Translations under genes and position numbers: made by a program | The notes under the pieces: generated by a model | The model's input: the letters and a program-made list of their open reading frames with translations, nothing else | What the model was told of the DNA's origin: nothing | The model's database searches: none | Shown here: positions 13,041 to 58,778 of the stretch, piece by piece | Position numbering within the stretch: the first letter of the stretch is position 1 | Layout of the letters: each line of letters opens with the position of its first letter | Source: Candidatus Kaiserbacteria bacterium | Lineage (GTDB): Bacteria > Patescibacteriota > Minisyncoccia > Phycocordibacterales > UBA2100 | Assembly (NCBI GenBank): GCA_028286585.1 | Contig: JAQBRI010000008.1 | Span: 18,514-82,513, forward strand | Length of the DNA: 64,000 bases | Reading direction: 5' to 3'

Positions 13041-13402
13041 GTATGAACCAAAATATATTAAATGAACAGCAAGATATTGTGATTAAGGTGCGGACAACTC
13101 TTGTGCCGTGCGAACCCCAGTCTATGATTGGGGTCGATGAGGGTATATCGAAAAAAATATATCCAATTAATGGTTTAAGACATCCAGTGAATGGTGGTGG
13201 TTCGGGTTGGTTTATTTGGTCCAGTGTAAAAGAAATTCCTCAAGATAATCCAAATTTTTTTAAACCTACACATGCACAGCATATTTATGAATCTTACCCA
13301 TTAATTTCTAAATATCTCGGTCTTCCACCCGGATGGCGCTTTTTAATTGATGACAAGGGGTATGAGGATATTTGGTACGATGCGTCTTTGTTTGAAGTTT
13401 AA
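13037..13402 (+). CDS. putative cognate immunity protein of the Rhs toxin (hypothetical 121 aa)
   Basis: Start overlaps the rhs stop (ATGA, 13037/13040). Small cytoplasmic protein with no known domain. The position is the canonical immunity-gene slot. Confidence 0.5.
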   Translation: MSMNQNILNEQQDIVIKVRTTLVPCEPQSMIGVDEGISKKIYPINGLRHPVNGGGSGWFIWSSVKEIPQDNPNFFKPTHAQHIYESYPLISKYLGLPPGWRFLIDDKGYEDIWYDASLFEV

Positions 13403-13560
13403 CGGTCCTGTTTGGAATGATACTGTCAGGTACTATTTAAATCAAAATTTTTTGTAAAATAATCATATGTCTCGTGACCACGTTTTTCATGCAAATTAAA
13501 TCTAATATCACTTTCCCTGATTAATATGATCAAAAAAATTTCATTCAAAGCTGTAATTAT

Positions 13561-13632
13561 TGCAAATAATGGGGTCAGCCACGATTTATTAAGACATGCA
13601 AATAATGGGGTCAGCCACGATTTATTAAGACA
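13561..13632 (+). repeat. two perfect tandem 36-bp copies of a REP-like element (core AATGGGGTCAGCCACGATTTATTAAGACA)
   Basis: tgcaaataatggggtcagccacgatttattaagaca occurs at 13561-13596 and again at 13597-13632. Confidence 0.85.
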
Positions 13633-13640
13633 AAAATAAT

Positions 13641-13865
13641 ATGAATTCAATTACATTCAGTACTGAAGAATTGATAATTATTAGTGCCGCAATCAGAGAG
13701 ACCTTAGAAGAGCTTGATATCAATGAATTTCAAACTAGAACAGGATTTAATCCGGATAAGTTTGAAGAGTTATACAAAAAAATCGACGAGTGTATCCAGG
13801 GTTAAATGCAAGATGTTCTGGAATAATGCAATAAATGGGGTCAGCCACGGTTTAATTATTGAATA
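13641..13865 (+). CDS. small hypothetical ORF (74 aa) read directly from the sequence; its 3' end runs into a REP copy
   Basis: atg at 13641, in-frame stop taa at 13863-13865. Translates as MNSITFSTEELIIISAAIRETLEELDINEFQTRTGFNPDKFEELYKKIDECIQVKCKMFWNNAINGVSHGLIIE. Absent from the supplied ORF track, so treat it as tentative. The last ~13 aa are REP-encoded. Confidence 0.25.
13833..13860 (+). repeat. REP-like element, left inverted copy flanking the RAYT gene
   Basis: Sequence aatggggtcagccacggtttaattattg. It pairs with the inverted copy at 14575-14595. Confidence 0.8.
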
Positions 13866-13889
13866 ACCTAAAAATGGTATCAATAATTA

Positions 13890-14585
13890 ATGTTACAATT
13901 TCTGTATATGGCACGGGGCGCCAGAGTAGATGTTGGGGGATACATATATCACGTACTCAATCGAGCAAATGCACGATTGCAGATTTTTGATTGCCGAAAA
14001 GATTATCTTCAATTTGAGTCTATTCTCGAGGAAGCAGTTGAGAAATTTGGAATACATCTTCTCGCGTATTGCATAATGCCAAATCACTGGCATTTGGTTA
14101 TTAAAACCGTAGAAGATAGAGATTTACAGAAGTTCATGTGCTGGCTTTCAAATACGCACACGAGGCGTTTTCATGGTGCAAAGCGTACCATCGGCCACGG
14201 TCATTTGTATCAAGGGCGATATAAATCTTTTCTATGCGAAGAAGATCAGCATTTCCTTACTCTCATGCGCTATGTAGAGCGCAACGCAAAGAAGGCAAAT
14301 ATTGTTCCTCTAGCTGAAGATTGGGAATGGTCCAGTGTATGGAGGCGTGAAAGAGGAACCCAAAAGCAAAGAGCACTTCTTACACCACCTCCGGTGCCGC
14401 TCCCTACACAGTATCTTGTGTGGCTCAATGAGCCACAAACAGAATCAGAAGAAATTGCACTAGAGCATGCAATAGAAAAAAACGTACCCTTTGGTACACT
14501 GAATTGGGTCGGGACAATTATTAATACATTTGGTATGCAGCAAACACAAAGAGGAGCTGGAAGACCGAGGATTAATCGTGGCTGA
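13890..14585 (+). mobile_element. REP-associated tyrosine transposase (RAYT; IS200/IS605-like HuH Y1 transposase, COG1943-type)
   Basis: HuH motif MPNHWHLVI and catalytic region GHLYQGRYKSF (aromatic-Q-x-R-aromatic, as in WQRRFWEH of RAYTs). Flanked by inverted REP copies. The stop codon lies inside the right REP. Confidence 0.75.
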
Positions 14586-14595
14586 CCCCATTTCC
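14575..14595 (-). repeat. REP-like element, right inverted copy overlapping the RAYT stop codon
   Basis: Plus strand reads atcgtggctgaccccatttcc. Its reverse complement is ggaaatggggtcagccacgat. Confidence 0.8.
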
Positions 14596-14630
14596 TCACA
14601 GATAAATCTTCAAAAAAAGACTAAAATATT

Positions 14631-14888: not shown

Positions 14889-14893
14889 AAGTG

Positions 14894-14920
14894 AAAATTG
14901 GGATCAGCCACCATTTTATA
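14894..14920 (+). repeat. degenerate REP-like copy
   Basis: Sequence aaattgggatcagccaccatttta carries two substitutions in the core. Confidence 0.5.
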
Positions 14921-15330: not shown

Positions 15331-15370
15331 TTTTGATTCTTATTCCTGAAACCAAAAAATTAGAAAGGTG

Positions 15371-15400
15371 ATAATGGGGTCAGCCACGATTTAATTACTG
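15371..15400 (+). repeat. REP-like element, a direct copy nearly identical over 37 bp to the one at 13833
   Basis: ataatggggtcagccacgatttaattactgaataa versus aatggggtcagccacggtttaattattgaataa at 13833. Confidence 0.8.
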
Positions 15401-39939: not shown

Positions 39940-40320
39940 ATGCGCAGATACATCAGTTCAGTTGCTTTAAGTTCCGCAGTCGTTTTACTTCCTCTTGTCA
40001 CTTTTGCTCAAAACGTTACAGCAGCAAATCCTCAACAAGGTTTGTTTGGATTGGTAGGATTTTTTAACAGTCTTTTGAATGCGATAATCGTACTTCTTAT
40101 TACCGCAGCCGTTGTAGCCATCTTTTACTGGGGTGTTCGCTTGCTCATGGCAAGTGGTGATGCAGAAAGTCGAAAAGCAGCTCTTGAAGGCATGATGTAC
40201 GGTGTTATAGCACTTGCAGTAATGGTTTCTATTTGGGGATTGGTCAAATTCTTGCAATCGACACTCGGAATCAGTAATAGTACTGCAGCACAGGCACCTT
40301 CGGTCCTCAACATTAAATAG
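39940..40320 (+). CDS. TrbC/VirB2-like small secreted two-TM protein, paralog 4
   Basis: Signal peptide (after TFA), two TM helices flanking VRLLMASGDAESRKAALEGMMYGVIALAVMV. Confidence 0.5.
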   Translation: MRRYISSVALSSAVVLLPLVTFAQNVTAANPQQGLFGLVGFFNSLLNAIIVLLITAAVVAIFYWGVRLLMASGDAESRKAALEGMMYGVIALAVMVSIWGLVKFLQSTLGISNSTAAQAPSVLNIK

Positions 40321-40339
40321 ACAGGTACACTCTTGAGCT

Positions 40340-40624
40340 ATGGACGTTATAGACACATTGCTCTACAAAATATCCACCATTATTATCTATCCGATAATGG
40401 TGGTTGTTTTTGCGGCAGGATTTTTTATGTTTATGTTTGGATTATTTAAGTTTATGCTCAATCTGAGTCAGGGAAGCAAATCAGCTGACGATGGCAAGCA
40501 GCATATGCTGTGGGGTACCGTTGGTATGGTTATTATGGTTTCGGGATATGGCATTGTTCAGCTTATAGACAATACCGTGCATTCAACAGGTACCGGTGTA
40601 TCACAGAGTATCAATAATCCTTAG
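40340..40624 (+). CDS. TrbC/VirB2-like small two-TM protein, paralog 5 (no cleavable signal peptide evident)
   Basis: Two TM helices flanking FKFMLNLSQGSKSADDGKQHMLWGTVGMVIMV. Confidence 0.4.
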   Translation: MDVIDTLLYKISTIIIYPIMVVVFAAGFFMFMFGLFKFMLNLSQGSKSADDGKQHMLWGTVGMVIMVSGYGIVQLIDNTVHSTGTGVSQSINNP

Positions 40625-40686
40625 TGTGCTGGAAGAGAGACTTGGTCACGAATATTTTTTGTGCCGTCGCACAAAAAATTTCTCGA

Positions 40687-40733
40687 CCCCAGCTCGCGGT
40701 CTCGTCTGCTGACTCGACATCGCTCCGCTTTTC
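40687..40733 (-). repeat. 45-nt tRNA-trailer-associated element, copy a (downstream of tRNA-Leu-TAG)
   Basis: Plus strand ccccagctcgcggtctcgtctgctgactcgacatcgctccgcttttc. Identical to the copies at 44392-44438 and 58585-58631 (one mismatch in the latter). Flanked by two hairpins. Confidence 0.85.
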
Positions 40734-40797
40734 AAGCCTCTCGCGTACCGTGCCCGAGCACGGTACTTTCCTGCCCAGTACTCACTTCGTTCGTCTG

Positions 40798-40879
40798 TGC
40801 TGGAAGAGAGACTTGAACTCTCATGGGTTGCCCCACATGCTCCTAAGGCATGCGCGTATACCAATTCCGCCATTCCAGC
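40798..40879 (-). tRNA. tRNA-Leu (anticodon TAG)
   Basis: Acceptor GCTGGAA/TTCCAGC, TGGCGGAATTGGTA D-arm, anticodon loop CTTAGGA, long variable arm, GAGAG-TTCAAGT-CTCTC T-arm, discriminator A. Confidence 0.8.
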
Positions 40880-41045
40880 ATTCACGAGTATTGTACACCA
40901 AGTATCGCACTATCAAAATTTATACACAGGCCAGTACTGGCAAATTGCCTAGGATGTGCGATATACTGTATAGGTTACTCGTTATCACAGAGATTCTATG
41001 TTATACGGCAAGCACTAAGCCACCTGAACCCCACCCGGGGTTCTT

Positions 41046-42278
41046 TTGGTGTGTTATAGAGGTATACTATTCTGTATGACACATGGGAAACCTAGGTTAA
41101 CAGTCTGTGAAGCCTGCGGTATTTCTCCGGTTAATCACTCCAAGCAATATATAAGTAGCGGTGCAGACAGTCTGACGTCTTCGGCTCTGTATTTTACTTA
41201 TCAAGTTAAGCCGCTGCAAAAAATTCTTTCACTCAACGAATCACTCAAGCGTCTTTGTGTGAGGACAGTGTTTGCGGTTGCCATATGGTTGGGAGTTATC
41301 AAACTTGATTCAAATATACCGACGCTTGATTCCACTCGCACTAAAGTTGTTATCGACGAAGCAAAAAAGCTTGGCATATCAGTCGAGCAGATGATTTTTG
41401 ACGGACGACGTACCGACAGATTTCGCGCGCTTGTACAAGGCAAACATATTTATTTTGAAAGCTTACCAATTCCAGATGGGCGAGGAAGTCTCGCGTACTT
41501 GTGGATGGATGATAAGTATTTGCTTAAGAAGTTTTTTGTACGACATTCCATACCGGTGCCGTTTGTACAAAGTCATACCTCATTACAGGATATTAAGAAT
41601 TTTTTTGATAACCCTACCGTACCACGTACCGTGATCGTCAAACCACGTTTTGGTTCTCTCGATCGACACACAACCACACGTATTAGTACCCAAAATGAAC
41701 TTGAGAGGGCATTTGTAAGTGCACAGCTCATATGTCCGCAAGTGTGTATAGAAGAGCATCTTGAAGGCGGTGTTAGTCGCGCGACGTGCATAGACGGAAA
41801 GCTTGAAGGATTTTTTACTGCAGATGCTCCGTATGTCATGGGTGATGGAATACGTTCGATCGAAGAGTTGATCAGAGAGATAAATATTTCAAAACCAGAT
41901 CGTCTTGGAGACGTTATTGTTTCTTCAGAAATTATTGGATACCTTTCGCGCACAAACTTTACTATTAATTCTGTTCCCAAAGCAGGACAACGTGTTCAGT
42001 TGTCGCACTATGCAGGCAGACAATTTGGGGGCTATACGCGGGAAATATTGCCAACAGTACATCCTGACCTTCGTGCACAGATAGAGCGTGCTGCATGCGT
42101 TTTGGGGGTATCAGTAGTGGGATTTGATCTCATTATTCCTGATCCAGAACAGGATCCAGCACAGCAAAAATGGGGAATAATAGAAGCAAATAGTTTGCCG
42201 TTTATTGATTTGCATTACTATGCGCTCGTAGGTCATTCAAACCCCGCAAAGGCGTTGTGGGAGTTGTGGTTGAGATAG
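41046..42278 (+). CDS. ATP-grasp ligase resembling the N-terminal ATP-grasp module of cyanophycin synthetase / RimK
   Basis: RTVIVKPRFGS...VMGDGIRSIEELIREINISKPDRLGDVIV...QLSHYAGRQFGGYTREILPTVHPD...VVGFDLIIPD...WGIIEANSLPFI. No Mur-ligase domain. Start uncertain. Confidence 0.55.
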   Translation: MVCYRGILFCMTHGKPRLTVCEACGISPVNHSKQYISSGADSLTSSALYFTYQVKPLQKILSLNESLKRLCVRTVFAVAIWLGVIKLDSNIPTLDSTRTKVVIDEAKKLGISVEQMIFDGRRTDRFRALVQGKHIYFESLPIPDGRGSLAYLWMDDKYLLKKFFVRHSIPVPFVQSHTSLQDIKNFFDNPTVPRTVIVKPRFGSLDRHTTTRISTQNELERAFVSAQLICPQVCIEEHLEGGVSRATCIDGKLEGFFTADAPYVMGDGIRSIEELIREINISKPDRLGDVIVSSEIIGYLSRTNFTINSVPKAGQRVQLSHYAGRQFGGYTREILPTVHPDLRAQIERAACVLGVSVVGFDLIIPDPEQDPAQQKWGIIEANSLPFIDLHYYALVGHSNPAKALWELWLR

Positions 42279-42383
42279 GGGGTGTACGGTTGGATTCGCC
42301 CGGAATAATTTTTCTTGTTTGTCGTCACGAATCACTCCACTAAAATTCTTCGCACCCGCTCGAATTGTAGATAAGTGTTCGCG

Positions 42384-42436
42384 ACCCCACCTCGCGGTTT
42401 TGCCTCAAGAAGATCGACAAAACATCGCTCCGGTTC
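42384..42436 (-). repeat. degenerate copy d of the tRNA-trailer element (downstream of tRNA-Lys)
   Basis: ccccacctcgcgg...acatcgctccggttc shares both ends (ggagcgatgt ... ccgcgag.tgggg) with copies a-c. A terminator hairpin (42450-42471) lies between it and the tRNA. Confidence 0.6.
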
Positions 42437-42447
42437 GGACAAACTAA

Positions 42448-42472
42448 AAACCTGCAGTAGTGCAGGTTTTCT
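42448..42472. terminator. rho-independent terminator hairpin
   Basis: aaaaacctgcagtagtgcaggttttc: an 8-bp stem flanked by an A-run and a T-run. Confidence 0.65.
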
Positions 42473-42481
42473 TAACGTTTG

Positions 42482-42554
42482 TCCGCCCGGTTGGATTCGA
42501 ACCAACGACCGTTCGCTTAAGAGGCGACTGCTCTACCAACTGAGCTACGGGCGG
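42482..42554 (-). tRNA. tRNA-Lys (anticodon CTT)
   Basis: Reverse complement CCGCCCG-TA-GCTCAGTTGGTAGAGC...anticodon loop CTCTTAA...GTTGG-TTCGAAT-CCAAC-CGGGCGG-A. Unusual C1:G72 pair, and one G.A at the top of the anticodon stem. Confidence 0.7.
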
Positions 42555-42587
42555 GATGCTGCGTATTGTACACGAAATATGGCATTT

Positions 42588-44123
42588 TCAAATAGAAAAC
42601 AGGCCAAGGGTATTGTGTTTATATTTCCATATCGAAAGGGTTGTATACATTTTTTGAAATAGTGAAAGGGAGGCCGTGTCTCGATACACGTTTACGAGAA
42701 TCATGCCGGAGTCATTAAGGTTTTTCTTGAGAGATATCACAAAATCCTCTTTATTTAAAAGAGGTGATGCTCCTGTATCCGTAAAAATATCGACGACGAT
42801 TAAGTCATACGTTTCTTGTAGTTTTGCCATTATCTCGGCAGCGTCGCCTTCGATGATCGTGGGCTCCTTATATGGCTTAAACATTTGCATAGTCCGAGTA
42901 AGCGCAATCATGGCAGGATCAATTTCTATTGCGGTAATTGTGCATTCTGGCAGTTGTTTATAAAACTCAATCACAGCGCCTCCGGTGCCCAGGCCAAGCA
43001 TTAATACTTTTGCCTGCGTTCTCGGAATACGACCATACTTTTTGATGTGTTTGAGTGCTTTTTTCCACATTGTATTGATATATTGCGAAGTCTGATACAC
43101 GTCTCCGGTTCGCACACGCACATCGCTTCCTACCCGATCTACATAAATAGTAGAATGAACCGAGGATGCAATTGCCCGTTCGGGCGAATGGTAATCCTTG
43201 TTCAGTGGATTGTTCATGTACAAATACTGAACAAAATCCTCAATGCGCTTAATAACTCCAACAGCGGCAAAATGGTACGCAATAGGAGAGGAAATAAAAT
43301 AGTGAGTACCAAATTTGGATTTGAATTCCGAAAATCCTTTCCATGACGCAGGGTCACCCTTTTTCCAAAAGACGCCAAAATCAATATACCTGCATCCTCG
43401 TGCCTGTGAGTGCATAAACCAATAATCAAACATGCCAACCATTAGTGGGACTTTTGATGACTCTGTCGCATAAAAGCCGTTCAAATAATACGTCGATTTG
43501 CACGACTCCGAATACTCGACAGCCATACCCGCAACATATATATTTGTCGACACATCACGAATACCCCATAGATATACAGGCGTAGTTGCTGCCTCGAGTC
43601 GTTTGCGGACTTCTTCGAGTAAAAATGCTCCCACGTGCTTTCCAACATGACTCTGCATATAGGAGTGCTTAAATTGCTCGTAGTTAATAGGCTCAATAAT
43701 ATGCGTTTTGCCCAAGTGGCTGCGCAGCCACTTTGTACGATATTCCTGAGATCGGCGACTCCATGCTTTGTAATAGGGAACAGAATCTTCTATGAGCGCA
43801 TAGCCACCCTTGTAGTCGGGATCAGGCTTTAAGATAAACCAACCCTTTGGCAATGGCCGAGAAGTATCAAACATTCGCCACATAATCACTCTGTTATGCG
43901 GTTTGCCCTCCGTATTTGAGATATCCAAATCAGGCGGAGTACTGCCTGCATAAATTTCTACATAGAAAGGCCAGAAACCATATCGCGTTCCACGTGGATT
44001 CGTACCGATGTTCTCAGGATTCATCCACGATGGAATATTATTTTTTACATTATATTCGGGCCATGCACTGCGCGGAGTGAATGCCGGCATTTTTTCTGAT
44101 GGAACTTTTTCGCTATGACTCAT
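42588..44123 (-). CDS. fusion protein: N-terminal ~330-aa domain of uncertain family (possibly FemAB/GNAT-like acyltransferase) plus C-terminal spermidine-synthase-like (PABS) Rossmann domain
   Basis: C-terminus VLMLGLGTGGAVIEF...ITAIEIDPAMI...DLIVVDIFTD matches the PABS pattern (VLiiGgGdGg...DviivDssdp). N-terminal family not assignable by eye. Start at MSHSEK (44123) abuts the tRNA 3' end; MPAFTPR (44090) is an alternative. The track ORF to 44213 reads through the tRNA. Confidence 0.5.
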   Translation of the reverse strand: MSHSEKVPSEKMPAFTPRSAWPEYNVKNNIPSWMNPENIGTNPRGTRYGFWPFYVEIYAGSTPPDLDISNTEGKPHNRVIMWRMFDTSRPLPKGWFILKPDPDYKGGYALIEDSVPYYKAWSRRSQEYRTKWLRSHLGKTHIIEPINYEQFKHSYMQSHVGKHVGAFLLEEVRKRLEAATTPVYLWGIRDVSTNIYVAGMAVEYSESCKSTYYLNGFYATESSKVPLMVGMFDYWFMHSQARGCRYIDFGVFWKKGDPASWKGFSEFKSKFGTHYFISSPIAYHFAAVGVIKRIEDFVQYLYMNNPLNKDYHSPERAIASSVHSTIYVDRVGSDVRVRTGDVYQTSQYINTMWKKALKHIKKYGRIPRTQAKVLMLGLGTGGAVIEFYKQLPECTITAIEIDPAMIALTRTMQMFKPYKEPTIIEGDAAEIMAKLQETYDLIVVDIFTDTGASPLLNKEDFVISLKKNLNDSGMILVNVYRDTASLSLFQKMYTTLSIWKYKHNTLGLFSI

Positions 44124-44124
44124 G

Positions 44125-44211
44125 TGCCGGGAGTGGGACTCGAACCCACACGCCCATGTTACTGTGCAAGAGATTTTAAGTCTCTGGTGTCTACCATTCC
44201 ACCATCCCGGC
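44125..44211 (-). tRNA. tRNA-Leu (anticodon TAA)
   Basis: GCCGGGA-TG-GTGGAATGGTAGACAC..anticodon loop CTTAAAA..long variable arm..GGTTCGAGTCC..TCCCGGC-A. Confidence 0.8.
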
Positions 44212-44284
44212 ATACATCTCTTTTTGGATCGAGATAGGGTACATAATACGATACTTTATGCTAAAATACACGAGCATTCATACC

Positions 44285-44356
44285 GGCCTGGTGGTGAAGA
44301 GGTAACACAGGAGTCTGCAAAACTTTTATGCGCGGGTTCGATTCCCGCCCAGGCCT
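44285..44356 (+). tRNA. tRNA-Cys (anticodon GCA)
   Basis: GGCCTGG acceptor, anticodon loop CTGCAAA, T-arm GCGGG-TTCGATT-CCCGC, CCAGGCC, discriminator T. The anticodon stem has 2 GU pairs. Confidence 0.75.
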
Positions 44357-44391
44357 CTAGACACAACATCTGCATGTTGTGGCTGCGGGAA

Positions 44392-44438
44392 TCGAAAAGC
44401 GGAGCGATGTCGAGTCAGCAGACGAGACCGCGAGCTGG
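44392..44438 (+). repeat. 45-nt tRNA-trailer-associated element, copy b (downstream of tRNA-Cys)
   Basis: gaaaagcggagcgatgtcgagtcagcagacgagaccgcgagctgggg. Followed at 44461-44495 by a degenerate duplicate of the tRNA-Cys T-arm/acceptor 3' half (ggttcgag...ccgcccaggcc). Confidence 0.85.
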
Positions 44439-44506
44439 GGCTGCGACCGAGCCGAAGCGACGGCGAGGTTCGAGTTGTAGCCGATTCAATACCGCCCAGG
44501 CCCCAT

Positions 44507-44833
44507 TTACGACCTTGTCAGTTCATCGATACGTAATCGATTCTTCTCTCCTTCATCGATAAGAAAATCCACCGTAGGCGCACGTCCCATACGTGTATGC
44601 TTGTTTATATACATTCGAAATTCAGCGCGTGATCGTCGGGCAAAATGCAATACCGAATCCTCGGATTCAACCGGCAGGACCGACAAATAAATATTTGCTT
44701 TGTGCATGTCGGGAGACAGATCGGTGCGCGTGACCGTTATGAGTGAAGTGCCATTGCTTTCACGTGCAAAATATTCCGCAGCTGTCTGCGTCAAAAGTTC
44801 TGTAATCTGTGTATGTCGATTTGGGCTTTTCAT
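44507..44833 (-). CDS. rbfA: ribosome-binding factor A
   Basis: LITVTRTDLSPDMHKANIYLSV pattern. Immediately downstream of infB, the conserved order. Confidence 0.85.
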   Translation of the reverse strand: MKSPNRHTQITELLTQTAAEYFARESNGTSLITVTRTDLSPDMHKANIYLSVLPVESEDSVLHFARRSRAEFRMYINKHTRMGRAPTVDFLIDEGEKNRLRIDELTRS

Positions 44834-44849
44834 AGGAATAGTAAAACTG

Positions 44850-46370
44850 TTACTGGCGGGTAGTTACAATATATTCTATCGTGTCTCCCTGCATGATTTC
44901 AAAATTTGCCTCGATATGCGCACCGCACTCGCGATCTGCATCGATTCTATCGACGTTTTGCTTGTTGGCCTGAATATTAATAATGACGCCATTTCCAAGA
45001 ACATCTGCTCGGCGCGATACACGTACTGTACCGTTTTTTACCAACTGTCCCTCAAGAACCTTGATACCAAGCACATGATCAAGTTTATGACTGCTGAATT
45101 GCATCAATACCTTTGCCCGGCCCAGTACCTCTATAACATCTTCTTTTGGCTTTGCCTTTTTCAGCCGTTCAGTCAAAGTCTCGGTCAGTTTGTAAATAAT
45201 ATTATAAAATTCGACTTCGACACCGCGCTCTCGGGCGATGGCTTCTGCTACCGTGTCGATGCCAACATTAAATCCTACAACAAGCGCCGGAGCTGTGCCC
45301 GCAAGCGCTGCACGAATATCATTTTCACTAATGGTACCGATGCCAGATTGTACAACGGTCACACCGTGCTTCTCGTCGCCAAGTTTGTGAATCTCTTGAA
45401 CCAGAGCTTCGAGTGAGCCAGTTGCATCGGCTCGCAAAATAATAGGAAGTGTAAAAAACCCATCTTCTTGATGCGCAGCTTGCGTTTGACTCGCATGATT
45501 TTCTTGAACGTAGATTTCGCGCGCCTTTTCAGCTTCGCGCTTGTTCGCATATGATGTAAATATCTCGCCAACTGCAGGCAACTCATCAAAACCAACCAAA
45601 ACAACCGGCGAAGAAAACGAAGCTTGCTTAAGTGTCGTACCCGTATGGCTTTCCATCAAGCGAACCGGTGCAATAGCAGAGCCCGCAACCACACTCATGC
45701 CGGTTTCTATCGTTCCATCAGTAATGATAAGTGTCGCAGCGATACCCCGCTTTTGATCACGATGTGCTTCGATTACAAATCCGCTTCCTGGAAGTGATAA
45801 TGTACCTTTGTAGTCTGCTATTTCAGAAACAATGAGAATAAGGTCCAGGAGTTCAGGAATACCAGTTCCTTTTTTTGCAGAAATTGCTACCCATGGCACG
45901 TCGCCTCCAAGCGTTTCAAGATAGACACCTTGTTCTGCAAGACTGTTTTGTGTGCGTGCGATATCAGCGTTTGGCTTGTCCGTTTTATTAATGGCAACAA
46001 TAAAAGGAATGTTACTTGAGCGAATTGCAGAAAGTGCCTCAAGCGTTTGAGCTTTGACACCGTCGTCTGCTGCCACAACCAAGATTGCAATATCGGCAAT
46101 GTTTGCACCGCGCGCGCGAATTGCCCCAAAAGCCGCGTGACCTGGTGTATCAATAAACGTTATACGCTTATCGATACCTTCGTACTTGTGTACGACTTCA
46201 TATGCTGCAACGTGTTGCGTTATGCCGCCAAATTCCTTGTCGACCGTATTTGCATGACGAATATAGTCAAGAAGAGTCGACTTACCGTGATCGACATGAC
46301 CCATTACCACCACGATAGGAGGTCGAACGCCACTCGTTATATTGTTTTGTGTTTGTTTGCTGGTTGTCAT
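44850..46370 (-). CDS. infB: translation initiation factor IF-2 (short form, G-domain onward)
   Basis: VVVMGHVDHGKSTLLD (G1), DTPGH (G3), NKTD (G4), and C-terminal beta-barrels. Only 506 aa. Confidence 0.9.
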   Translation of the reverse strand: MTTSKQTQNNITSGVRPPIVVVMGHVDHGKSTLLDYIRHANTVDKEFGGITQHVAAYEVVHKYEGIDKRITFIDTPGHAAFGAIRARGANIADIAILVVAADDGVKAQTLEALSAIRSSNIPFIVAINKTDKPNADIARTQNSLAEQGVYLETLGGDVPWVAISAKKGTGIPELLDLILIVSEIADYKGTLSLPGSGFVIEAHRDQKRGIAATLIITDGTIETGMSVVAGSAIAPVRLMESHTGTTLKQASFSSPVVLVGFDELPAVGEIFTSYANKREAEKAREIYVQENHASQTQAAHQEDGFFTLPIILRADATGSLEALVQEIHKLGDEKHGVTVVQSGIGTISENDIRAALAGTAPALVVGFNVGIDTVAEAIARERGVEVEFYNIIYKLTETLTERLKKAKPKEDVIEVLGRAKVLMQFSSHKLDHVLGIKVLEGQLVKNGTVRVSRRADVLGNGVIINIQANKQNVDRIDADRECGAHIEANFEIMQGDTIEYIVTTRQ

Positions 46371-51242: not shown

Positions 51243-51255
51243 GCTGCAATAATCA

Positions 51256-51285
51256 CAAAAAAGACGGCACGGCCGTCTTTTTTGT
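51256..51285. terminator. bidirectional rho-independent terminator after clpB
   Basis: aaaaaagacggcacggccgtcttttttgtg. Confidence 0.75.
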
Positions 51286-51363
51286 GTAATCAGAAATGCT
51301 TTTTTGGAGCGCCCATATTTTCTTAACAGTAATCCGTTTTAGAAAATAGAAGTACTTTTAGGG

Positions 51364-52339: not shown

Positions 52340-52560
52340 TAATGAAAACCGCTTTGAAACGTAGGTGTGTCGGTGAAGTAGGGTGTAATTCCCTCACTAT
52401 CGCGTAACTGTAAAGTCAGATCCCGCACATTACCCCTTTGTAAGGGGCTACATCGGCTCGCGCCTAGTCATTCTGAGAGGTCTCTACCTCGCAGGCATTA
52501 CATGACCCCGGCACGAACCGGGAGTTTTCGATGCGTGCGCCCTCTCTCGCGCAAAGAGAG
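52340..52560 (+). promoter_or_regulatory. long hairpin-rich leader upstream of nrdAB; candidate cis-regulatory RNA with weak resemblance to the cobalamin-riboswitch core
   Basis: cGGTGaagtAGGGtgtAATTCCctcactatCGCGTAACTGTAAagtcagatCCCGC loosely resembles the GGTG..AAUCC..CCCGCCACUGUaA core. Additional hairpins: CCCCTTtgtaAGGGG, GAGGTctctACCTC, CCCGGcacgaaCCGGG, CCTCTCTcgcgcaaAGAGAGG. Confidence 0.25.
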
Positions 52561-52583: not shown

Positions 52584-55100
52584 ATGGAAATTAATATTTG
52601 TAAGCGTAATGGCACTTGTGAACCATTCAACGCAGATAAAATCAACAGATCGATAGAACGAGAATGCGCAGGCTTTCTCGATCCTATAGGCATGACTACA
52701 CAGATTGCGACTGAGACACGCCTCACTCTGTATGATGGTATGACGACAGAGGAGATGGACCAGGCTACGATAAGCGCTGCCGTTCAAAATATCAAGGAGG
52801 ACATCGAATATGATAAAGTCGCTGTGCGATTGCTGCTTAAGACAGTGTACCGGCGTGTGGTAGGCGAATATAAGCATGATGCGCAGGAGCTCAAAGCAAA
52901 GCATCGAAAGCAGTTTTCGGTGCACATAAAGAAATATATTACTGCAGGCCTACTTGATGAAAGAATGGGAAAGCTTTTTGACCTCGAAAAACTTGCAGCA
53001 GCTATGGTATTAGATCGAGATCAATTGTTTACCTATGCAGGTCTTTCGACACTGCTTGATAGGTACTCTATGCGAGACGTAGAGCAAAATCGCATTGAAA
53101 CTCCACAATTTTTATTTATGCGCATCGCAATGGGCCTTGCGTATAACGAAAAAAATCCAACTCTATGGGCTATTAAGTTTTATGAGCGCATGTCGCAACA
53201 CCTCTACATTGCGGGAGGCACAACAAACATTGGTGCAGGAACATCTCGTCCAGCGCTGTCGAATTGCTTCTTGCTTGAGATTCATGATGATATGGATCAT
53301 ATTGCAAAATCTGTTGCGGATGTAATGAAAATATCGAAATCATCGGGCGGTATTGGGGCGTCACTCACTAAACTGCGCGCAACTGGCTCGCCGCTCAAGT
53401 CGAGTAATACTGTATCCTCGGGACCAACTCCGTTTGCAAAAATAATCGATACCGCTATTCGTGCCGTCCAGCGTGGAGGTAAAAAATTGGGTGCGCTTTG
53501 TTTCTATATGGAAAACTGGCACTACGATTTTCCGGAATTCATAGACTGGAAACATAATGCAGGCGACGATTACCTTCGTATGCGAACAGCAAACACGGCA
53601 GTATTTCTCTCGGATGAATTTATGCTACGTGTTGAAAATAACGACGACTGGTATATGTTTGATCCAAAAGAAACACCCGATCTAAACGAGTTATATGGCC
53701 AAGCATTTAGTAAACGCTATAAAGAGTACGTAGAAATGGCGAAGGCCGGAAAACTTCGAATGTTTAAAAAAGTTCCTGCGGCCGAACAGTGGCATCACAT
53801 TCTGACTTCGCTTCAGGCGACTTCGCACCCATGGCTCACGTGGAAAGATCCGATTAACCTTCGGGCACTCAACAACAACACTGGAACTATTCACATGTCT
53901 AATCTTTGCACCGAAATATGTCTTCCGCAGGATAGAGAAAACATAGCTGTATGTAATCTTGCGTCACTCAATATTGCTGCACATATTGAGCACAAACAAA
54001 TTAATTGGGGTAAACTTGAAGAAAGTGTTCGTCTTGCGATCCGACAACTAGATAATCTTATCGACATTAATGATCTTCCGATTCCAGAAGCTGCACGCTC
54101 GGACAAAGAAAATCGTGCAGTAGGTCTTGGAGTCATGGGATTTGCCGATGCACTCGAGCAGCTCTCGATGTCATATGAAAGTGCACATGCGTGGGATTTT
54201 GCAGATCGTATCTTTGAATTTATCTCCTACATGGCAATTGATGAAAGTGCGAACCTTGCAAAAGAACGCGGTTCCTATAAGCACTTTCAGGGTTCCGGAT
54301 GGTCAAAAGGCATGGTCCCCATTGATACGGTCGCTGCGCTCGAAAAAGACCGCGGAATCAGTATTGACGTACCAAAAGCAACAAAGCAAAAAATGCTCGA
54401 TTGGGACAAACTTCGGGCAAAAGTTAAGCAAGGAATGAGAAACGCAACTCTGATGGCCATTGCACCAAATGCCAATATCGGACTGTTGGCGGGAACTACT
54501 CCGGGTATTGATCCGCGTTTTGCACAAGTTTTTTCCCGCAACAAAATTTCTGGCAAATATCTTGATCTCAATCACAATTTGGTAAAAGATCTTAAAAATA
54601 TGGGTCTTTGGGAAGAGCTTAAAGATCAAATCATTGAAGCGCAAGGTGATATATCCGAACTACCACACATTCCGGCATATCTCAAAGAGATATATCGTAC
54701 TGCGTTTACCACTTCGCCTCAATCTTACATAGAGGTTGCAGCACGGGCGCAGAAATGGGTTGATCAAGCTCTTAGTCGTAACATGTATTTGGCAGAGCGC
54801 GATATGGAAACAATGAGTAATGTATACAAGATGGCCTGGAAAAAAGGTCTCAAGACAACTTACTATCTGCATATGCAACAACGACATACCGCAGAACAAA
54901 GTACAACTACAGTAAACAAAGCTGAAGCGCTTGGAAAGAGGGGATTTGGAGCAATCAAAGCTGCGCCTGTGGTACTACAACCAGAAAAAACATCAACACC
55001 TTCGCCGATTGCTATGCCTACACCCATCATAGCCAAAACAACCACAATTCGAGGGCCAGAAGACCCGCAAGAAGCCAATGTCTGCATCGCGTGCCAATAA
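52584..55100 (+). CDS. nrdA: class Ia ribonucleotide reductase alpha subunit with N-terminal ATP-cone
   Basis: ATP-cone MEINICKRNGTCEPFNADKINRSIE. Active-site NLCTEI. C-terminal Cys pair CIACQ. Confidence 0.9.
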   Translation: MEINICKRNGTCEPFNADKINRSIERECAGFLDPIGMTTQIATETRLTLYDGMTTEEMDQATISAAVQNIKEDIEYDKVAVRLLLKTVYRRVVGEYKHDAQELKAKHRKQFSVHIKKYITAGLLDERMGKLFDLEKLAAAMVLDRDQLFTYAGLSTLLDRYSMRDVEQNRIETPQFLFMRIAMGLAYNEKNPTLWAIKFYERMSQHLYIAGGTTNIGAGTSRPALSNCFLLEIHDDMDHIAKSVADVMKISKSSGGIGASLTKLRATGSPLKSSNTVSSGPTPFAKIIDTAIRAVQRGGKKLGALCFYMENWHYDFPEFIDWKHNAGDDYLRMRTANTAVFLSDEFMLRVENNDDWYMFDPKETPDLNELYGQAFSKRYKEYVEMAKAGKLRMFKKVPAAEQWHHILTSLQATSHPWLTWKDPINLRALNNNTGTIHMSNLCTEICLPQDRENIAVCNLASLNIAAHIEHKQINWGKLEESVRLAIRQLDNLIDINDLPIPEAARSDKENRAVGLGVMGFADALEQLSMSYESAHAWDFADRIFEFISYMAIDESANLAKERGSYKHFQGSGWSKGMVPIDTVAALEKDRGISIDVPKATKQKMLDWDKLRAKVKQGMRNATLMAIAPNANIGLLAGTTPGIDPRFAQVFSRNKISGKYLDLNHNLVKDLKNMGLWEELKDQIIEAQGDISELPHIPAYLKEIYRTAFTTSPQSYIEVAARAQKWVDQALSRNMYLAERDMETMSNVYKMAWKKGLKTTYYLHMQQRHTAEQSTTTVNKAEALGKRGFGAIKAAPVVLQPEKTSTPSPIAMPTPIIAKTTTIRGPEDPQEANVCIACQ

Positions 55101-58508: not shown

Positions 58509-58584
58509 ACAAGTCGACTTTATCATAAAAGGAGGACACTCGGCCAGGCGTTCAAAATGTGTCGCCACACATTTTGCCGCACGG

Positions 58585-58631
58585 CCCTAGCTCGCGGTCT
58601 CGTCTGCTGACTCGACATCGCTCCGCTTTTC
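58585..58631 (-). repeat. 45-nt tRNA-trailer-associated element, copy c (downstream of tRNA-Leu-CAA)
   Basis: ccctagctcgcggtctcgtctgctgactcgacatcgctccgcttttc. Flanked by the hairpins aagcacacaaa..ttttgtgtgctt and aaaatgtgtggcgacacatttt. Confidence 0.85.
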
Positions 58632-58696
58632 GAGTCTCCCAAGCACACAAAATAGTTTGTGTGCTTCCCAGCCCAAAACTCACTTCGTTCGTTTTT

Positions 58697-58778
58697 GTGC
58701 CGGGAGAGAGACTCGAACTCTCATGAGTTACCTCGAACGATTTTGAGTCGTTTGCGTCTACCATTCCGCCATCCCGGC
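58697..58778 (-). tRNA. tRNA-Leu (anticodon CAA)
   Basis: GCCGGGA-TG-GCGGAATGGTAGACGC..anticodon loop CTCAAAA..long variable arm..GAGAG-TTCGAGT-CTCTC-TCCCGGC-A. Confidence 0.8.

What the first reader, a model, noticed from the sequence alone, without database searches (positions are those of the whole stretch)
40625..40879. Identical 45-nt element downstream of four different tRNA genes, with partial tRNA 3'-end duplications (miniature tRNA-targeting element?)
The sequence GAAAAGCGGAGCGATGTCGAGTCAGCAGACGAGACCGCGAGCTGGGG, written in the tRNA-sense orientation, lies 60-100 nt downstream of three tRNAs. It is always in the same orientation relative to the tRNA, and it is bracketed by two hairpins; the distal one is terminator-like.

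The three near-identical copies follow these tRNAs:
- tRNA-Leu-TAG at 40687-40733.
- tRNA-Cys at 44392-44438.
- tRNA-Leu-CAA at 58585-58631, with one mismatch.

A diverged fourth copy follows tRNA-Lys (42384-42436).

In copy a, the 20 nt tgtgctggaagagagacttg at the tRNA 3' end (40796-40815) are repeated at 40625-40644. These two repeats flank a 151-bp unit. In copy b, a degenerate duplicate of the tRNA-Cys T-arm/acceptor half follows the element (44461-44495).

Direct repeats of a tRNA 3' end are the hallmark of site-specific integration at tRNA genes. Here the integrated unit is only ~150 bp. It carries no gene, and it is present in several near-identical copies. That pattern suggests a non-autonomous miniature element mobilised in trans, or a conserved trailer-encoded small RNA.
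Basis: seen in the sequence. Interest (0 to 1): 0.7.

Follow-up and report, generated by a model that had tools for sequence, protein, structure and literature searches.

The report
Guide-bearing structured element behind tRNA genes
Four tRNA genes in this Saccharibacteria-like window are each followed by a small gene-less unit with a strongly conserved RNA fold, a stretch complementary to the tRNA's own 3' end and a second copy of that end; the unit is widespread in Patescibacteria, matches no described family, and looks like a new kind of site-specific insertion element.

Summary
The 47-mer is exact at 40687-40733(-) and 44394-44440(+), has one mismatch at 58585-58631(-), and a diverged fourth copy lies at 42385-42432(-). 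All four are tRNA-sense, just 3' of tRNA-Leu(TAG), Cys, Leu(CAA) and Lys(CTT).

The 47-mer is one arm of a roughly 95-nt three-way junction: closing helix P1, hairpin HP-A (GGAGCGAUGU...ACCGCGAG), GGG, and hairpin HP-B ending in GUGAC. About 210 copies were found in Patescibacteria genomes and metagenomes, none in viral contigs, with no Rfam match. Covariation is very strong (94.5% paired; 24 of 25 pairs show double changes), and G.U outnumbers A.C 113 to 2, so the fold is read on the tRNA-sense strand.

Each core is preceded by a segment complementary to the 3' part of the upstream gene (anti-X). It is followed, directly after GUGAC, by a second copy of that part (X').

Hosts are about 35 tRNA species, tmRNA, and the 3' ends of topA, rpsI and rpsR. 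In the protein genes the whole C-terminal coding end is duplicated.

My best reading is a new family of integrase-less insertion elements that bring a replacement 3' end for the target. The enzyme or ribozyme responsible is unknown.

The parts
40797..40879 (-). tRNA-Leu(TAG), host gene of copy a
   Evidence: ARAGORN; Rfam tRNA 58.9 bits
40796..40815 (-). X of copy a: the tRNA segment from T-loop C56 to the 3' end (CAAGTCTCTCTTCCAGCACA)
   Evidence: Read; identical to 40625-40644
40781..40792 (-). GAACGAAGUGAG motif at the start of the trailer. It recurs in copy c and in other loci, either here or at the tip of HP-B.
   Evidence: L010, L015, L018, L061, L065
40770..40779 (-). Segment partly complementary to the acceptor 3' strand (anti-acceptor, ACUGGGCAGG)
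   Evidence: The minimum-free-energy fold pairs it with CCAG of X'; clearer equivalents in L016 and L088
40745..40766 (-). Hairpin 1 of copy a (loop CUCG; the family consensus loop is CUGC)
   Evidence: fold; loop statistics (CUGC in 62 of 130)
40731..40742 (-). anti-X of copy a: GAGAGGCUUGAA, complementary to the T-loop plus T-stem 3' strand (UUCAAGUCUCUC, one G.U)
   Evidence: duplex -16.5 kcal/mol
40691..40729 (-). HP-A of copy a: AGC-GGAGCGAUGU-[variable stem-loop]-ACCGCGA-GCU.
40644..40688 (-). HP-B of copy a: GGUCGAGA...CGUGACC, ending in GUGAC|C
40625..40644 (-). X' of copy a: an exact second copy of the tRNA 3' 20-mer, directly after GUGAC. It abuts the stop codon of the convergent pilin-like ORF 40340-40624.
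   Evidence: (score 20)
44285..44357 (+). tRNA-Cys(GCA), host gene of copy b; X = 44339-44357
44362..44381 (+). Hairpin 1 of copy b (CACAACAU-CUGC-AUGUUGUG)
   Evidence: loop CUGC
44385..44396 (+). anti-X of copy b: GCGGGAAUCGAA, an exact complement of UUCGAUUCCCGC of the tRNA-Cys T-arm
44398..44436 (+). HP-A of copy b
   Evidence: 79 bits
44439..44482 (+). HP-B of copy b (GGCUGCGACC...GUUGUAGCC)
44482..44504 (+). X' of copy b, decayed: CGATTCAATACCGCCCAGGCCCC against the tRNA's CGATTCCCGCCCAGGCCTC
   Evidence: score 11
58697..58778 (-). tRNA-Leu(CAA), host gene of copy c; X = 58696-58715
58643..58674 (-). Anti-acceptor segment (58665-58674, GGGCUGGGAA) plus hairpin 1 (58643-58664, loop CUAU) of copy c
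58629..58642 (-). anti-X of copy c: UUGGGAGACUCGAA, complementary to UUCGAGUCUC.. of the tRNA T-arm
   Evidence: -14.6 kcal/mol
58589..58627 (-). HP-A of copy c (one mismatch to copies a and b, in the following GGGG run)
   Evidence: 77 bits
58542..58586 (-). HP-B of copy c (GGCCGUGCGG...CGCCUGGCC)
58531..58542 (-). X' remnant of copy c (CGAGTGTCCTCC), followed about 20 nt later by the miaA start
42481..42554 (-). tRNA-Lys(CTT), host gene of copy d
42436..42485 (-). Long hairpin of copy d: the last 5 nt of the tRNA (CGGAC), an A-rich trailer, hairpin 1 (loop CUAC), a U-rich arm, and anti-X (GUCCG)
   Evidence: the same layout occurs in about half of all family members (spacing 49-52 nt)
42389..42434 (-). 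HP-A of copy d (different inner stem-loop, P2 = ACC/GGU)
   Evidence: 68.6 bits
42323..42386 (-). HP-B of copy d (long form with ACUUA...UAGUGA internal motif), ending in GUGAC|G
42317..42323 (-). X' of copy d: GACAAAC, repeating the tRNA end plus trailer (GGAC|AAAC)
   Evidence: -10.2 kcal/mol with anti-X

Best explanation
**What it is.** Each unit is a small (about 140-190 nt), gene-less insertion element. It sits in the 3' part of a conserved gene: here four tRNA genes, elsewhere also tmRNA, topA, rpsI and rpsR.

**Order of parts**
1. The host gene's own 3' segment, X, which keeps the gene intact.
2. A trailer and hairpin 1, usually with a CUGC loop.
3. anti-X, 9-17 nt complementary to X.
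4. A conserved core made of one A, hairpin HP-A (GGAGCGAUGU...ACCGCGAG), GGG, and hairpin HP-B ending in GUGAC.
5. Directly abutting the core, a second copy X' of the host segment.

**Proposed mechanism.** The element enters a target whose sequence matches its anti-X guide. The joint forms exactly at GUGAC|N. This is between U55 and C56 of the T-loop in copies a to c, and three nucleotides before the end of the tRNA in copy d. The element brings its own copy of everything from the joint to the end of the gene, so the host gene still works. The displaced original end stays behind as X' and decays. Repeated entries give arrays of the form tRNA-E-X-E-X.

**Status of each step**
- Shown: the anatomy, the family, the fold, the strand on which it is read, the X:anti-X pairing and its covariation, the fixed joint, and the duplicated gene ends.
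- Inferred: that the duplication arose by insertion, and that anti-X chooses the site.
- Unknown: what makes the joint. It could be a trans-acting recombinase or nuclease that binds the core, or catalysis by the core itself.
For: **Family and fold**
- There are 4 copies in the window, 98 in 71 genome loci and 110 in 98 metagenome loci.
- In an independent metagenome set, 94.5% of cells are paired and 24 of 25 pairs have double changes. The covariation score is 0.60, against 0.185 in shuffles (0 of 500 reach it) and 0.06-0.10 for slid partners.
- G.U outnumbers A.C 113 to 2, and one G.U pair is kept in 58 of 64 sequences.

**Targets**
- 66 of 101 copies lie within 130 nt 3' of a same-strand tRNA or tmRNA gene, and 11 more are in tandem behind another copy.
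- 74 of 128 tRNA and tmRNA genes in those loci carry a copy, covering about 35 anticodons.

**Guide**
- anti-X pairs with the cognate tRNA 3' end far better than with non-cognate ones: mean -17.3 against -9.8 kcal/mol, p=2e-18.
- In the topA lineage X and anti-X covary across species over synonymous codon changes: CACAAAAAC/GUUUUUGUG, CACGAAAAC/GUUUUCGUG, CACCAAAAC/GUUUUGGUG, CACGAAGAC/GUCUUCGUG. The helices are 9-12 bp.

**Fixed joint**
- X' starts at C56 directly after GUGAC in 10 genome cases and about 16 metagenome cases.
- In end-type units the first base after GUGAC follows tRNA base 72: CAC.. or GAC...

**Replacement of the gene end**
- topA (confirmed by Pfam), rpsR and rpsI carry the unit near their stop codons.
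- The C-terminal coding end is present twice, in frame in copy 1.
- In L118, 15 codons differ synonymously, 6 differ in amino acid and 1 is identical, over 32 of 66 nt differences. In L057 all 3 differences are synonymous.

**Turnover**
- Tandem and mixed arrays occur in L020, L004, L126, L140 and L066.
- The same tRNA in related Saccharibacteria carries type A, another core type, or nothing.
- X' is intact in copy a and decayed in copies b and c.
- Cores are more alike within a genome than between genomes (0.76 against 0.53). The CAZTIN genome has 91-94% identical cores at two tRNA-Arg genes and at topA.

**Absences**
- There is no Rfam family and there are no viral-contig hits.
Against: - No recombinase, nuclease or reverse transcriptase was found in or next to any unit. 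The window neighbours are housekeeping genes.
- No empty site from a close relative was recovered, so insertion has not been seen directly.
- A single element lineage cannot easily explain how anti-X and X come to match each new target. I have no mechanism for that.
- The intact host gene still contains X, so a guide against X would not tell occupied sites from empty ones.
- In some genomes every tRNA in a locus carries a unit (L012). That would also fit a host function.
- The within-genome similarity of cores could be gene conversion rather than movement.
- The conserved reading frames in copy 2 of topA could mean that both copies are used, as in the intron-like rival.
- In end-type units hairpin 1 looks like a terminator (stem followed by a U run). 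If it terminates efficiently, the core would be poorly transcribed.
Confidence: 0.5

Rival explanations
1. A host cis-acting RNA module in the 3' trailer of stable-RNA and some mRNA genes. anti-X alternates between pairing with the gene's real 3' end (X) and with the decoy X'. The conserved junction binds a protein or ligand that sets the balance, and so controls tRNA folding, 3' processing, termination or decay.
For: - The conserved structure is of RNA type and is read on the sense strand.
- X:anti-X pairing is conserved and covaries.
- In T-loop-type units anti-X would unfold the T-arm and acceptor of the tRNA, and X' can compete for it.
- Nearly every tRNA in some loci carries a unit (L012).
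- There is no terminator between the tRNA and the core in window copies a to c.
Against: - A decoy needs only the 6-12 nt that pair with anti-X. In fact whole C-terminal coding ends with stop codons are duplicated in topA and rpsR.
- X' is often decayed while anti-X stays matched to X (window copies b and c; L023).
- Occupancy of the same tRNA varies among related genomes, and unrelated core types sit in the same place.
- Tandem arrays are hard to reconcile with a tuned switch.
Confidence: 0.2
2. A miniature attP-only integrative element that acts purely as double-stranded DNA. A tyrosine integrase encoded elsewhere recombines it into the T-loop or 3' end of tRNA genes. The conserved core is an array of protein-binding arm sites.
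For: - The target repertoire is that of integrase-borne islands: tRNA T-loop and 3' end, tmRNA, and the 3' ends of rpsI and other housekeeping genes. This rests on established knowledge; PMC7192596 states that such elements integrate so as to preserve the target gene.
- Direct repeats run from the crossover to the gene end.
- There are arrays from repeated integration.
- Gene islets are bounded by tRNA 3' copies in L127 and L128.
Against: - Double-stranded protein sites do not predict compensatory changes in 24 of 25 helix pairs, nor a 113 to 2 excess of G.U over A.C.
- No integrase was found in the islets or next to the units.
- One integrase cannot serve about 35 different tRNA cores, each with its own matching X.
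- An inverted copy of the core (anti-X) 50-100 bp away is not part of known att sites.
Confidence: 0.12
3. An intron-like RNA. The segment from the joint in X to GUGAC is removed from some transcripts, joining the gene body to X'. anti-X then acts like an internal guide, pairing first with the start of the removed segment and then with the 3' exon.
For: - anti-X pairs with 0-2 nt upstream of the joint plus the sequence downstream of it, and with the start of X'. This resembles P1/P10 of group I introns.
- Joining at the two joints is in frame in topA.
- Copy 2 of topA keeps its reading frame at near-saturated synonymous divergence (L118).
- Group I introns are common in Patescibacteria tRNA genes (PMC13011429).
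Against: - There is no match to the group I or group II intron models.
- There is no U.G at the 5' joint, no terminal G, and no GUGYG...AY pattern in T-loop-type units.
- X' is decayed in many tRNA copies, so the spliced product would be non-functional.
- The unspliced gene is already complete, so splicing is not needed.
Confidence: 0.1
4. A family of tRNA-like non-coding RNA genes derived from tandem tRNA duplicates. The acceptor-like and T-like helices let RNase P, RNase Z and the CCA-adding enzyme cut out and stabilise an RNA whose enlarged 'T-loop' is the conserved junction.
For: - Whole T-loop-type units fold into a cloverleaf-like shape, with z = -4.6 and -5.7.
- L084 and L102 have a unit with a 9-bp acceptor-like helix but no tRNA body upstream, and a TATAAT-like box 7 nt before it.
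Against: - About half of the family (end-type units) and all protein-gene units have no tRNA-like helices.
- anti-X is the reverse complement of the T-loop, not a sense copy of the T-arm 5' half (12 of 12 against 8 of 12 matches).
Confidence: 0.05

Closest known systems
Integrative genetic elements (genomic islands, prophages, ICEs) that use tyrosine integrases to enter tRNA or tmRNA genes or the 3' ends of housekeeping genes
   Same: - Same targets and sublocations: T-loop, extreme 3' end, tmRNA, and the rpsI 3' end.
- The element carries the segment from the crossover to the gene end, so the gene stays intact.
- The displaced fragment remains as a direct repeat.
- Repeated entry gives arrays.

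The general statement is in PMC7192596, and tRNA fragments as integration footprints are described in PMC9897764. The sublocation classes are from my own knowledge (Williams 2002).
   Different: - The unit is 140-190 nt with no integrase or any other gene.
- Its conserved part is a covarying single-strand structure rich in G.U.
- It carries an inverted copy of the target segment.
- One family serves dozens of different targets.
Group I introns of Patescibacteria tRNA genes (PMC13011429)
   Same: - Small, gene-less structured RNAs lodged in tRNA genes of the same phylum.
- An internal guide pairs with sequence on both sides of the junction.
   Different: - There is no match to the group I model.
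- The position is the T-loop or 3' end, not the anticodon loop.
- The host gene is complete without splicing.
- There is no U.G pair and no terminal G.
Theta (minimal HDV-like) ribozymes 3' of phage tRNAs (PMC10879173)
   Same: - A small structured RNA directly 3' of tRNA genes and co-transcribed with them.
- A proposed role at the tRNA 3' end.
   Different: - Theta ribozymes abut the tRNA end and cleave at their own 5' end.
- Here the core lies 36-65 nt downstream, matches no HDV-like model, is chromosomal in Patescibacteria, and is absent from viral contigs.
- Theta ribozymes have no target duplication.
RNA- or DNA-guided mobile elements: group II intron EBS-IBS pairing, IS110 bridge RNA, IS200/IS605 guide sequences (own knowledge)
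   Same: The insertion site appears to be read by base pairing with a segment inside the element, and the joint lies at a fixed distance from that pairing.
   Different: - Those elements encode their own protein (reverse transcriptase, recombinase or transposase).
- They do not duplicate 20-75 nt of the target.
- No such protein was found here.
Single-strand folded recombination sites: integron attC and the CTX-phage attP(+) (own knowledge)
   Same: - The structure is conserved rather than the sequence.
- An inverted repeat folds to rebuild a duplex copy of the target at the crossover.
   Different: - Those sites are substrates of IntI or XerCD, with known box sequences.
- A conserved G.U pair and the 113 to 2 G.U bias point to RNA rather than DNA.
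- The targets here are gene 3' ends.
Synthetic home-and-rescue or cleave-and-rescue gene drives (own knowledge)
   Same: The layout is the same: essential gene body, then a recoded replacement 3' end with its own terminator, then the drive cassette, then the original 3' end.
   Different: - This is a design analogy only.
- No nuclease or guide-directed cleavage has been shown.
- In tRNA hosts the replacement is not recoded.

Membership tests
Tyrosine-integrase integrative element | Direct repeat of the target running from the crossover to the gene end, with the gene left intact | tested here: met
Tyrosine-integrase integrative element | An integrase gene inside the element, next to one att site | tested here: not met
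   The units are 140-190 nt with no ORF. The neighbours are housekeeping genes, and the islets in L127 and L128 lack an integrase.
Tyrosine-integrase integrative element | att site recognised as duplex DNA, so no single-strand covariation is expected | tested here: not met
   24 of 25 pairs show compensatory changes; G.U to A.C is 113 to 2
MITE / REP-RAYT (REPIN) repeats | Dispersed intergenic copies with terminal inverted repeats or REP hairpins; the cognate RAYT gene is flanked by the same repeat | tested here: not met
   All copies lie at gene 3' ends. The window's RAYT-like gene is flanked by a different repeat, and the model finds nothing there.
Group I intron | Match to the conserved P3-P9 core (Rfam RF00028); U.G at the 5' splice site; terminal G | tested here: not met
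   No hit at E<=10; the joints are U|C, N|C and GAC|N
Group II intron | GUGYG...AY ends, a domain V, and usually a reverse-transcriptase ORF | tested here: not met
   No Rfam hit. GUGCG occurs only where it complements a tRNA end. The paper PMC13011429 reports no group II introns in Patescibacteria.
Known self-cleaving ribozymes (hammerhead, HDV-like/theta, twister, pistol, hatchet, hairpin) | Match to the family covariance model | tested here: not met
   No hit at E<=10 over 40000-45000, and none at gathering score in the window
Known self-cleaving ribozymes | Self-cleavage activity | not testable with these tools
   Needs in vitro transcription of, for example, 40620-40800(-)
Intrinsic terminator repeat | G+C-rich hairpin followed by a U run; no conservation beyond that | tested here: not met
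   No terminator-like site in HP-A or HP-B on the tRNA strand. About 25 invariant bases are shared across classes of the phylum.
Riboswitch or T-box-type cis-regulator | Lies in the 5' leader of the regulated gene; a ligand or tRNA binding site; an expression platform | tested here: not met
   It always lies 3' of a gene, and the downstream genes are unrelated and often convergent. There is no Rfam match. Ligand binding is not testable here.
Small protein gene | A conserved reading frame from GGAG-N3-AUG | tested here: not met
   The insert between the two conserved blocks varies by lengths that are not multiples of 3, and there are early stops, for example MFCRSS* in copy d
Diversity-generating retroelement (TR/VR pair) | Two copies of a gene's 3' end that differ at adenines of the template; a reverse transcriptase nearby | tested here: not met
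   The differences between copies are not adenine-specific, and no reverse transcriptase is nearby

The most novel reading that the evidence does not exclude
The conserved three-way junction is a new functional RNA. It would be either a ribozyme that cuts or joins at GUGAC|N, or the scaffold of an RNA-guided recombinase or nuclease. It makes a gene-free element mobile, chooses its insertion site by base pairing through anti-X, and carries a 'rescue' copy of the target gene's 3' end. That would be a natural counterpart of home-and-rescue gene drives, operating on tRNA, tmRNA, topA and ribosomal-protein genes of Patescibacteria.
Probability: 0.3. Interest if true: 0.95.

Novelty: categorically new. 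Interest (0 to 1): 0.82.

Why it matters
If this reading is right, the smallest known bacteria carry dozens of copies per genome of a gene-less element. The element combines a deeply conserved RNA fold, a target-matching guide and a spare 3' end for the gene it enters. That combination has not been described.

Possible consequences:
- It could reveal a new catalytic RNA or a new RNA-guided recombination system with programmable specificity.
- It would explain why assemblies and tRNA annotations of Patescibacteria are littered with tRNA 3' fragments.
- It offers a natural example of the 'rescue' design used in synthetic gene drives.

Even under the host-function rival, it would be the first conserved structured module that acts on tRNAs from their 3' trailers.

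Tried and rejected
1. Rfam at gathering score and at E<=10: only tRNAs and an AdoCbl-II riboswitch. Nothing was found for the element or for the other core types.
2. A small ORF starting from GGAG..AUG: the frame is not conserved.
3. A kissing interaction between the hairpin 1 loop (CUGC) and the HP-A loop (AGCA/AGUA): complementarity is no better than in permuted pairs.
4. A link to the RAYT-like gene at 13890-14585: it has its own unrelated repeats.
5. A phage origin: there are no viral-contig matches.
6. An empty Leu(TAG) site in metagenomes, searched with a 29-mer specific to the unoccupied junction: none found.
7. Close strains found through the exact RbfA protein: the only contig ends at the repeat.
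8. A cis-encoded integrase or endonuclease:
   - The gene islets bounded by tRNA 3' copies hold UDG-like, MazG-like and methyltransferase genes only.
   - One LAGLIDADG ORF lies beside a unit in L039, but the locus is scrambled and this was seen only once.
9. The L069 copy in a 1.6-Mb Vicinamibacterales contig: I first read it as an insertion into an ORF, but no long ORF spans the site. I therefore draw no conclusion about transfer outside Patescibacteria.
10. Literature searches for the motif strings and for tRNA-trailer elements in Patescibacteria: nothing relevant.
11. Hammerhead-like reading of the junction: the order of GAAA and the stems does not fit. The CUGACGAG string in the minimal variant is a by-product of a short hairpin (reasoned).
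Full report
**1. The observation**

ARAGORN finds seven tRNA genes in the window. It has one mismatch at 58585-58631(-), and zero matches are expected by chance. A gapped pattern and two sub-blocks pick up a diverged fourth copy at 42385-42432(-).

All four copies lie on the strand of, and just 3' of, a tRNA: Leu(TAG), Cys, Leu(CAA) and Lys(CTT). The 20-mer at the tRNA-Leu(TAG) 3' end (40796-40815) recurs exactly at 40625-40644.

The slips are small. The window has 44.7% G+C and ordinary housekeeping genes: MreB, FtsZ, IF-2, RbfA, MiaA and ParB.

**2. It is a family, not a local repeat**

A pattern made of the blocks shared by all four copies found 71 loci among one genome per species. Nearly all are Patescibacteria: Saccharibacteria, Paceibacterota/Parcubacteria, and Kaiser-, Taylor-, Yanofsky-, Wolfe-, Adler- and Moranbacteria. 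About five are chance hits in G+C-rich genomes. The same pattern found 98 metagenome loci and no viral contigs.

A covariance model built from 64 copies gave these results:
- It finds exactly the four window sites, with nothing else below E=2.6.
- It finds 98 sites in the genome loci.
- It finds 110 sites in the metagenome loci.

Rfam has no family for it, at gathering score or at E<=10. Text searches for the motif and for tRNA-trailer elements in this phylum found nothing.

**3. Anatomy of the core**

The alignments show the 47-mer to be hairpin HP-A. It has these parts:
- A 3-bp helix, A-S-C/G-S-U, whose middle pair flips G-C to C-G in half of the copies.
- An invariant internal loop and helix (GGAGCGAUGU / ACCGCGAG).
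- A variable inner stem-loop, usually capped AGCA or AGUA.

After GGG comes HP-B. Its base is conserved (GGUCGCGA...UYGUGACC) and includes a G.U pair kept in 58 of 64 copies. Its middle is variable and covaries.

On the independent metagenome alignment:
- 94.5% of cells are paired.
- 24 of 25 pairs have changes on both sides.
- The covariation score is 0.60, against 0.185 in shuffles (0 of 500 reach it) and 0.06-0.10 for slid partners.
- One caveat applies: that alignment was fitted to the model.

G.U pairs outnumber A.C 113 to 2. The structure is therefore read on the tRNA-sense strand and behaves like RNA.

**4. The flanks carry the surprise**

Reading all copies side by side shows that the core is always preceded by a segment complementary to the 3' part of the gene upstream. 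I call that part X and its complement anti-X. Directly after GUGAC the core is followed by a second copy of the part, X'.

There are two layouts.
- In T-loop-type units (window copies a, b and c), anti-X is the exact reverse complement of the T-loop plus the T-stem 3' strand. An example is GCGGGAAUCGAA for tRNA-Cys. A second short segment upstream of hairpin 1 complements the acceptor 3' strand. X' runs from C56 to the end of the tRNA.
- In end-type units (copy d, and about half of the family, with spacing 49-52 nt), the last 3-5 nt of the tRNA plus an A-rich trailer pair with a U-rich arm plus anti-X. Together they form one long hairpin, and X' repeats only N72-A73-C74 plus a few A's.

The first base after GUGAC follows the tRNA: CAC.. 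or GAC...

The supporting statistics are these:
- Cognate anti-X:tRNA duplexes average -17.3 kcal/mol against -9.8 for non-cognate pairs (p=2e-18).
- anti-X:X' duplexes average -8.0 against -4.7 (p=1e-10).
- X' starts exactly at C56 in 10 genome cases and about 16 metagenome cases.
- Hairpin 1 has a conserved loop, CUGC in 62 of 130 copies, so it belongs to the unit.
- Whole T-loop-type units fold into a cloverleaf-like shape, with z = -4.6 and -5.7.

**5. Hosts**

In the window plus the genome loci, 66 of 101 copies lie within 130 nt 3' of a same-strand tRNA or tmRNA gene, and 11 follow another copy. Of 128 tRNA and tmRNA genes there, 74 carry one, covering about 35 anticodons. In L012 all five tRNAs do.

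The 'orphans' were the most informative.
- Several sit at the 3' end of topA (Pfam confirmed). Others sit at rpsI (...RRPQWSKR*) and rpsR (...GLLPFIQK*).
- In these genes the stretch from the joint through the stop codon is present twice. In some it extends through the following hairpin.
- Copy 1 is in frame with the gene. Copy 2 lies right after GUGAC.
- In L057 the two copies differ at 3 sites, all synonymous.
- In L118 they differ at 32 of 66 nt, yet only 6 of 22 codons change the amino acid.

Across the topA loci, X and anti-X change together while the codons stay synonymous, giving helices of 9-12 bp. X' does not follow anti-X in L023. The pairing under selection is therefore X:anti-X, and X' behaves as a relic.

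**6. Signs of turnover**

- Arrays of the form tRNA-E-X-E-X occur, sometimes mixing unrelated cores (L020, L004, L126, L140, L066).
- The same tRNA in related Saccharibacteria carries this core, another core type, or nothing.
- At least two other core types share the same flank logic and also lack Rfam matches.
- X' is perfect in copy a and decayed in copies b and c.
- Cores are more alike within genomes than between them (0.76 against 0.53). They are identical at three loci of one genome. In another genome they are 91-94% identical at two tRNA-Arg genes and at topA. This fits recent spread or gene conversion.
- In the window, only HP-A is identical among copies a to c, while HP-B and hairpin 1 differ. 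That looks like conversion or recombination of modules.

**7. Interpretation**

The duplicated gene ends, the fixed joint, the arrays and the patchy occupancy are what site-specific insertion into the 3' part of conserved genes leaves behind. The inserted piece brings a replacement end, and the host repertoire matches that of integrase-borne islands.

Three things do not fit any known element:
- There is no gene at all.
- The conserved part is an RNA-type three-way junction.
- The unit carries a target-complementary segment that spans the joint in the intact target. In T-loop units it pairs with U54 and U55 as well.

I therefore favour a new kind of integrase-less insertion element whose conserved RNA, or single strand, takes part in its own placement. 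My confidence is about 0.5. The agent that makes the joint is unknown.

The rivals are set out in the Rival explanations section with their tests:
- a host switch acting on tRNA 3' ends;
- an attP-only miniature element acting as duplex DNA;
- an intron-like RNA that uses X' as an alternative 3' exon;
- a tRNA-like RNA gene family.

**8. Limits**

- No empty allele from a close relative was found.
- No partner protein was found.
- No expression data exist here.
- I cannot explain how anti-X and X become matched to each new target.
- Labels of a few copies outside Patescibacteria (L009, L028, L065, L069) rest on metagenome bins, and I draw no conclusion from them.

Noticed in passing
window 13890-14585 (+) and flanks 13560-13870, 14570-14600, 14890-14920, 15370-15400: A 231-aa IS200-like Y1 transposase (RAYT-like) gene is flanked by at least six copies of a roughly 25-nt repeat, AATAATGGGGTCAGCCACGATTTAATTA. 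This looks like a REP/RAYT pair unrelated to the tRNA element.
   Followed up: partly
window 52356-52433 (+): An AdoCbl-II riboswitch (Rfam, 37.3 bits) lies between tRNA-Trp and the 838-aa ORF at 52584-55100.
   Followed up: no
window 4425-13040 (+) and 13037-13402 (+): A 2871-aa ORF is followed by an Imm33-like immunity-domain ORF. This resembles a polymorphic toxin/immunity pair.
   Followed up: no
window 42287-42298 (-): The 12-mer CGAATCCAACCG, identical to the T-loop and T-stem of tRNA-Lys(CTT), lies about 25 nt beyond the Lys unit. It may be the relic of an older T-loop-type insertion at the same gene.
   Followed up: no
window 51250-51360 (-), downstream of tRNA-Tyr: About 90 nt of trailer containing GTTAAGAAAA, a motif common in end-type units, is followed by a terminator that starts CAC and ends GUG. 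This is possibly a decayed unit. The model does not score it.
   Followed up: no
L008 361-508, L046, L052, L029, L066 1570-1770, L047 4217-4370, L126, L140: At least two other structured core types sit in the same place with the same flank logic: anti-X before, a copy of the tRNA 3' end after. One type ends ...GUGUAC(A/C)G..UGUAAGAUU. The other starts AAGC-UUCUCCCAUAUUUUU. Neither has an Rfam match.
   Followed up: partly
L039 461-1291 (-): A LAGLIDADG endonuclease ORF lies between a complete tRNA-Lys(TTT) and a T-loop-to-end copy of another tRNA-Lys, which is itself followed by a unit. The 5' part of the second tRNA is missing.
   Followed up: partly
L127 (about 2.6 kb after tRNA-Asp) and L128 (about 2.2 kb after tRNA-Glu): Small gene islets (UDG-like, MazG-like, methyltransferase, and unknown genes) are bounded by copies of the tRNA 3' part. 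No integrase is present.
   Followed up: partly
L043 573-646 and L049 4901-4974: A tRNA with anticodon UUA, called 'tRNA-Stop' by ARAGORN, is followed by a unit. It may be a suppressor or recoding tRNA.
   Followed up: no
L072 (Logan contig from the same organism): The only other contig encoding the identical RbfA protein ends about 96 nt past rbfA, which is at the repeated element. These units probably break short-read assemblies.
   Followed up: no
L084 1530-1790 and L102: A full T-loop-type unit has a 9-bp acceptor-like helix but no tRNA body upstream. A TATAAT-like box lies 7 nt before its first base.
   Followed up: no
L069 5690-5870: A copy whose core is identical to that of a Patescibacteria genome (L026) lies in a 1.6-Mb contig labelled Vicinamibacterales. 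The local G+C is about 0.5. It could be horizontal transfer or a binning or assembly artefact.
   Followed up: partly
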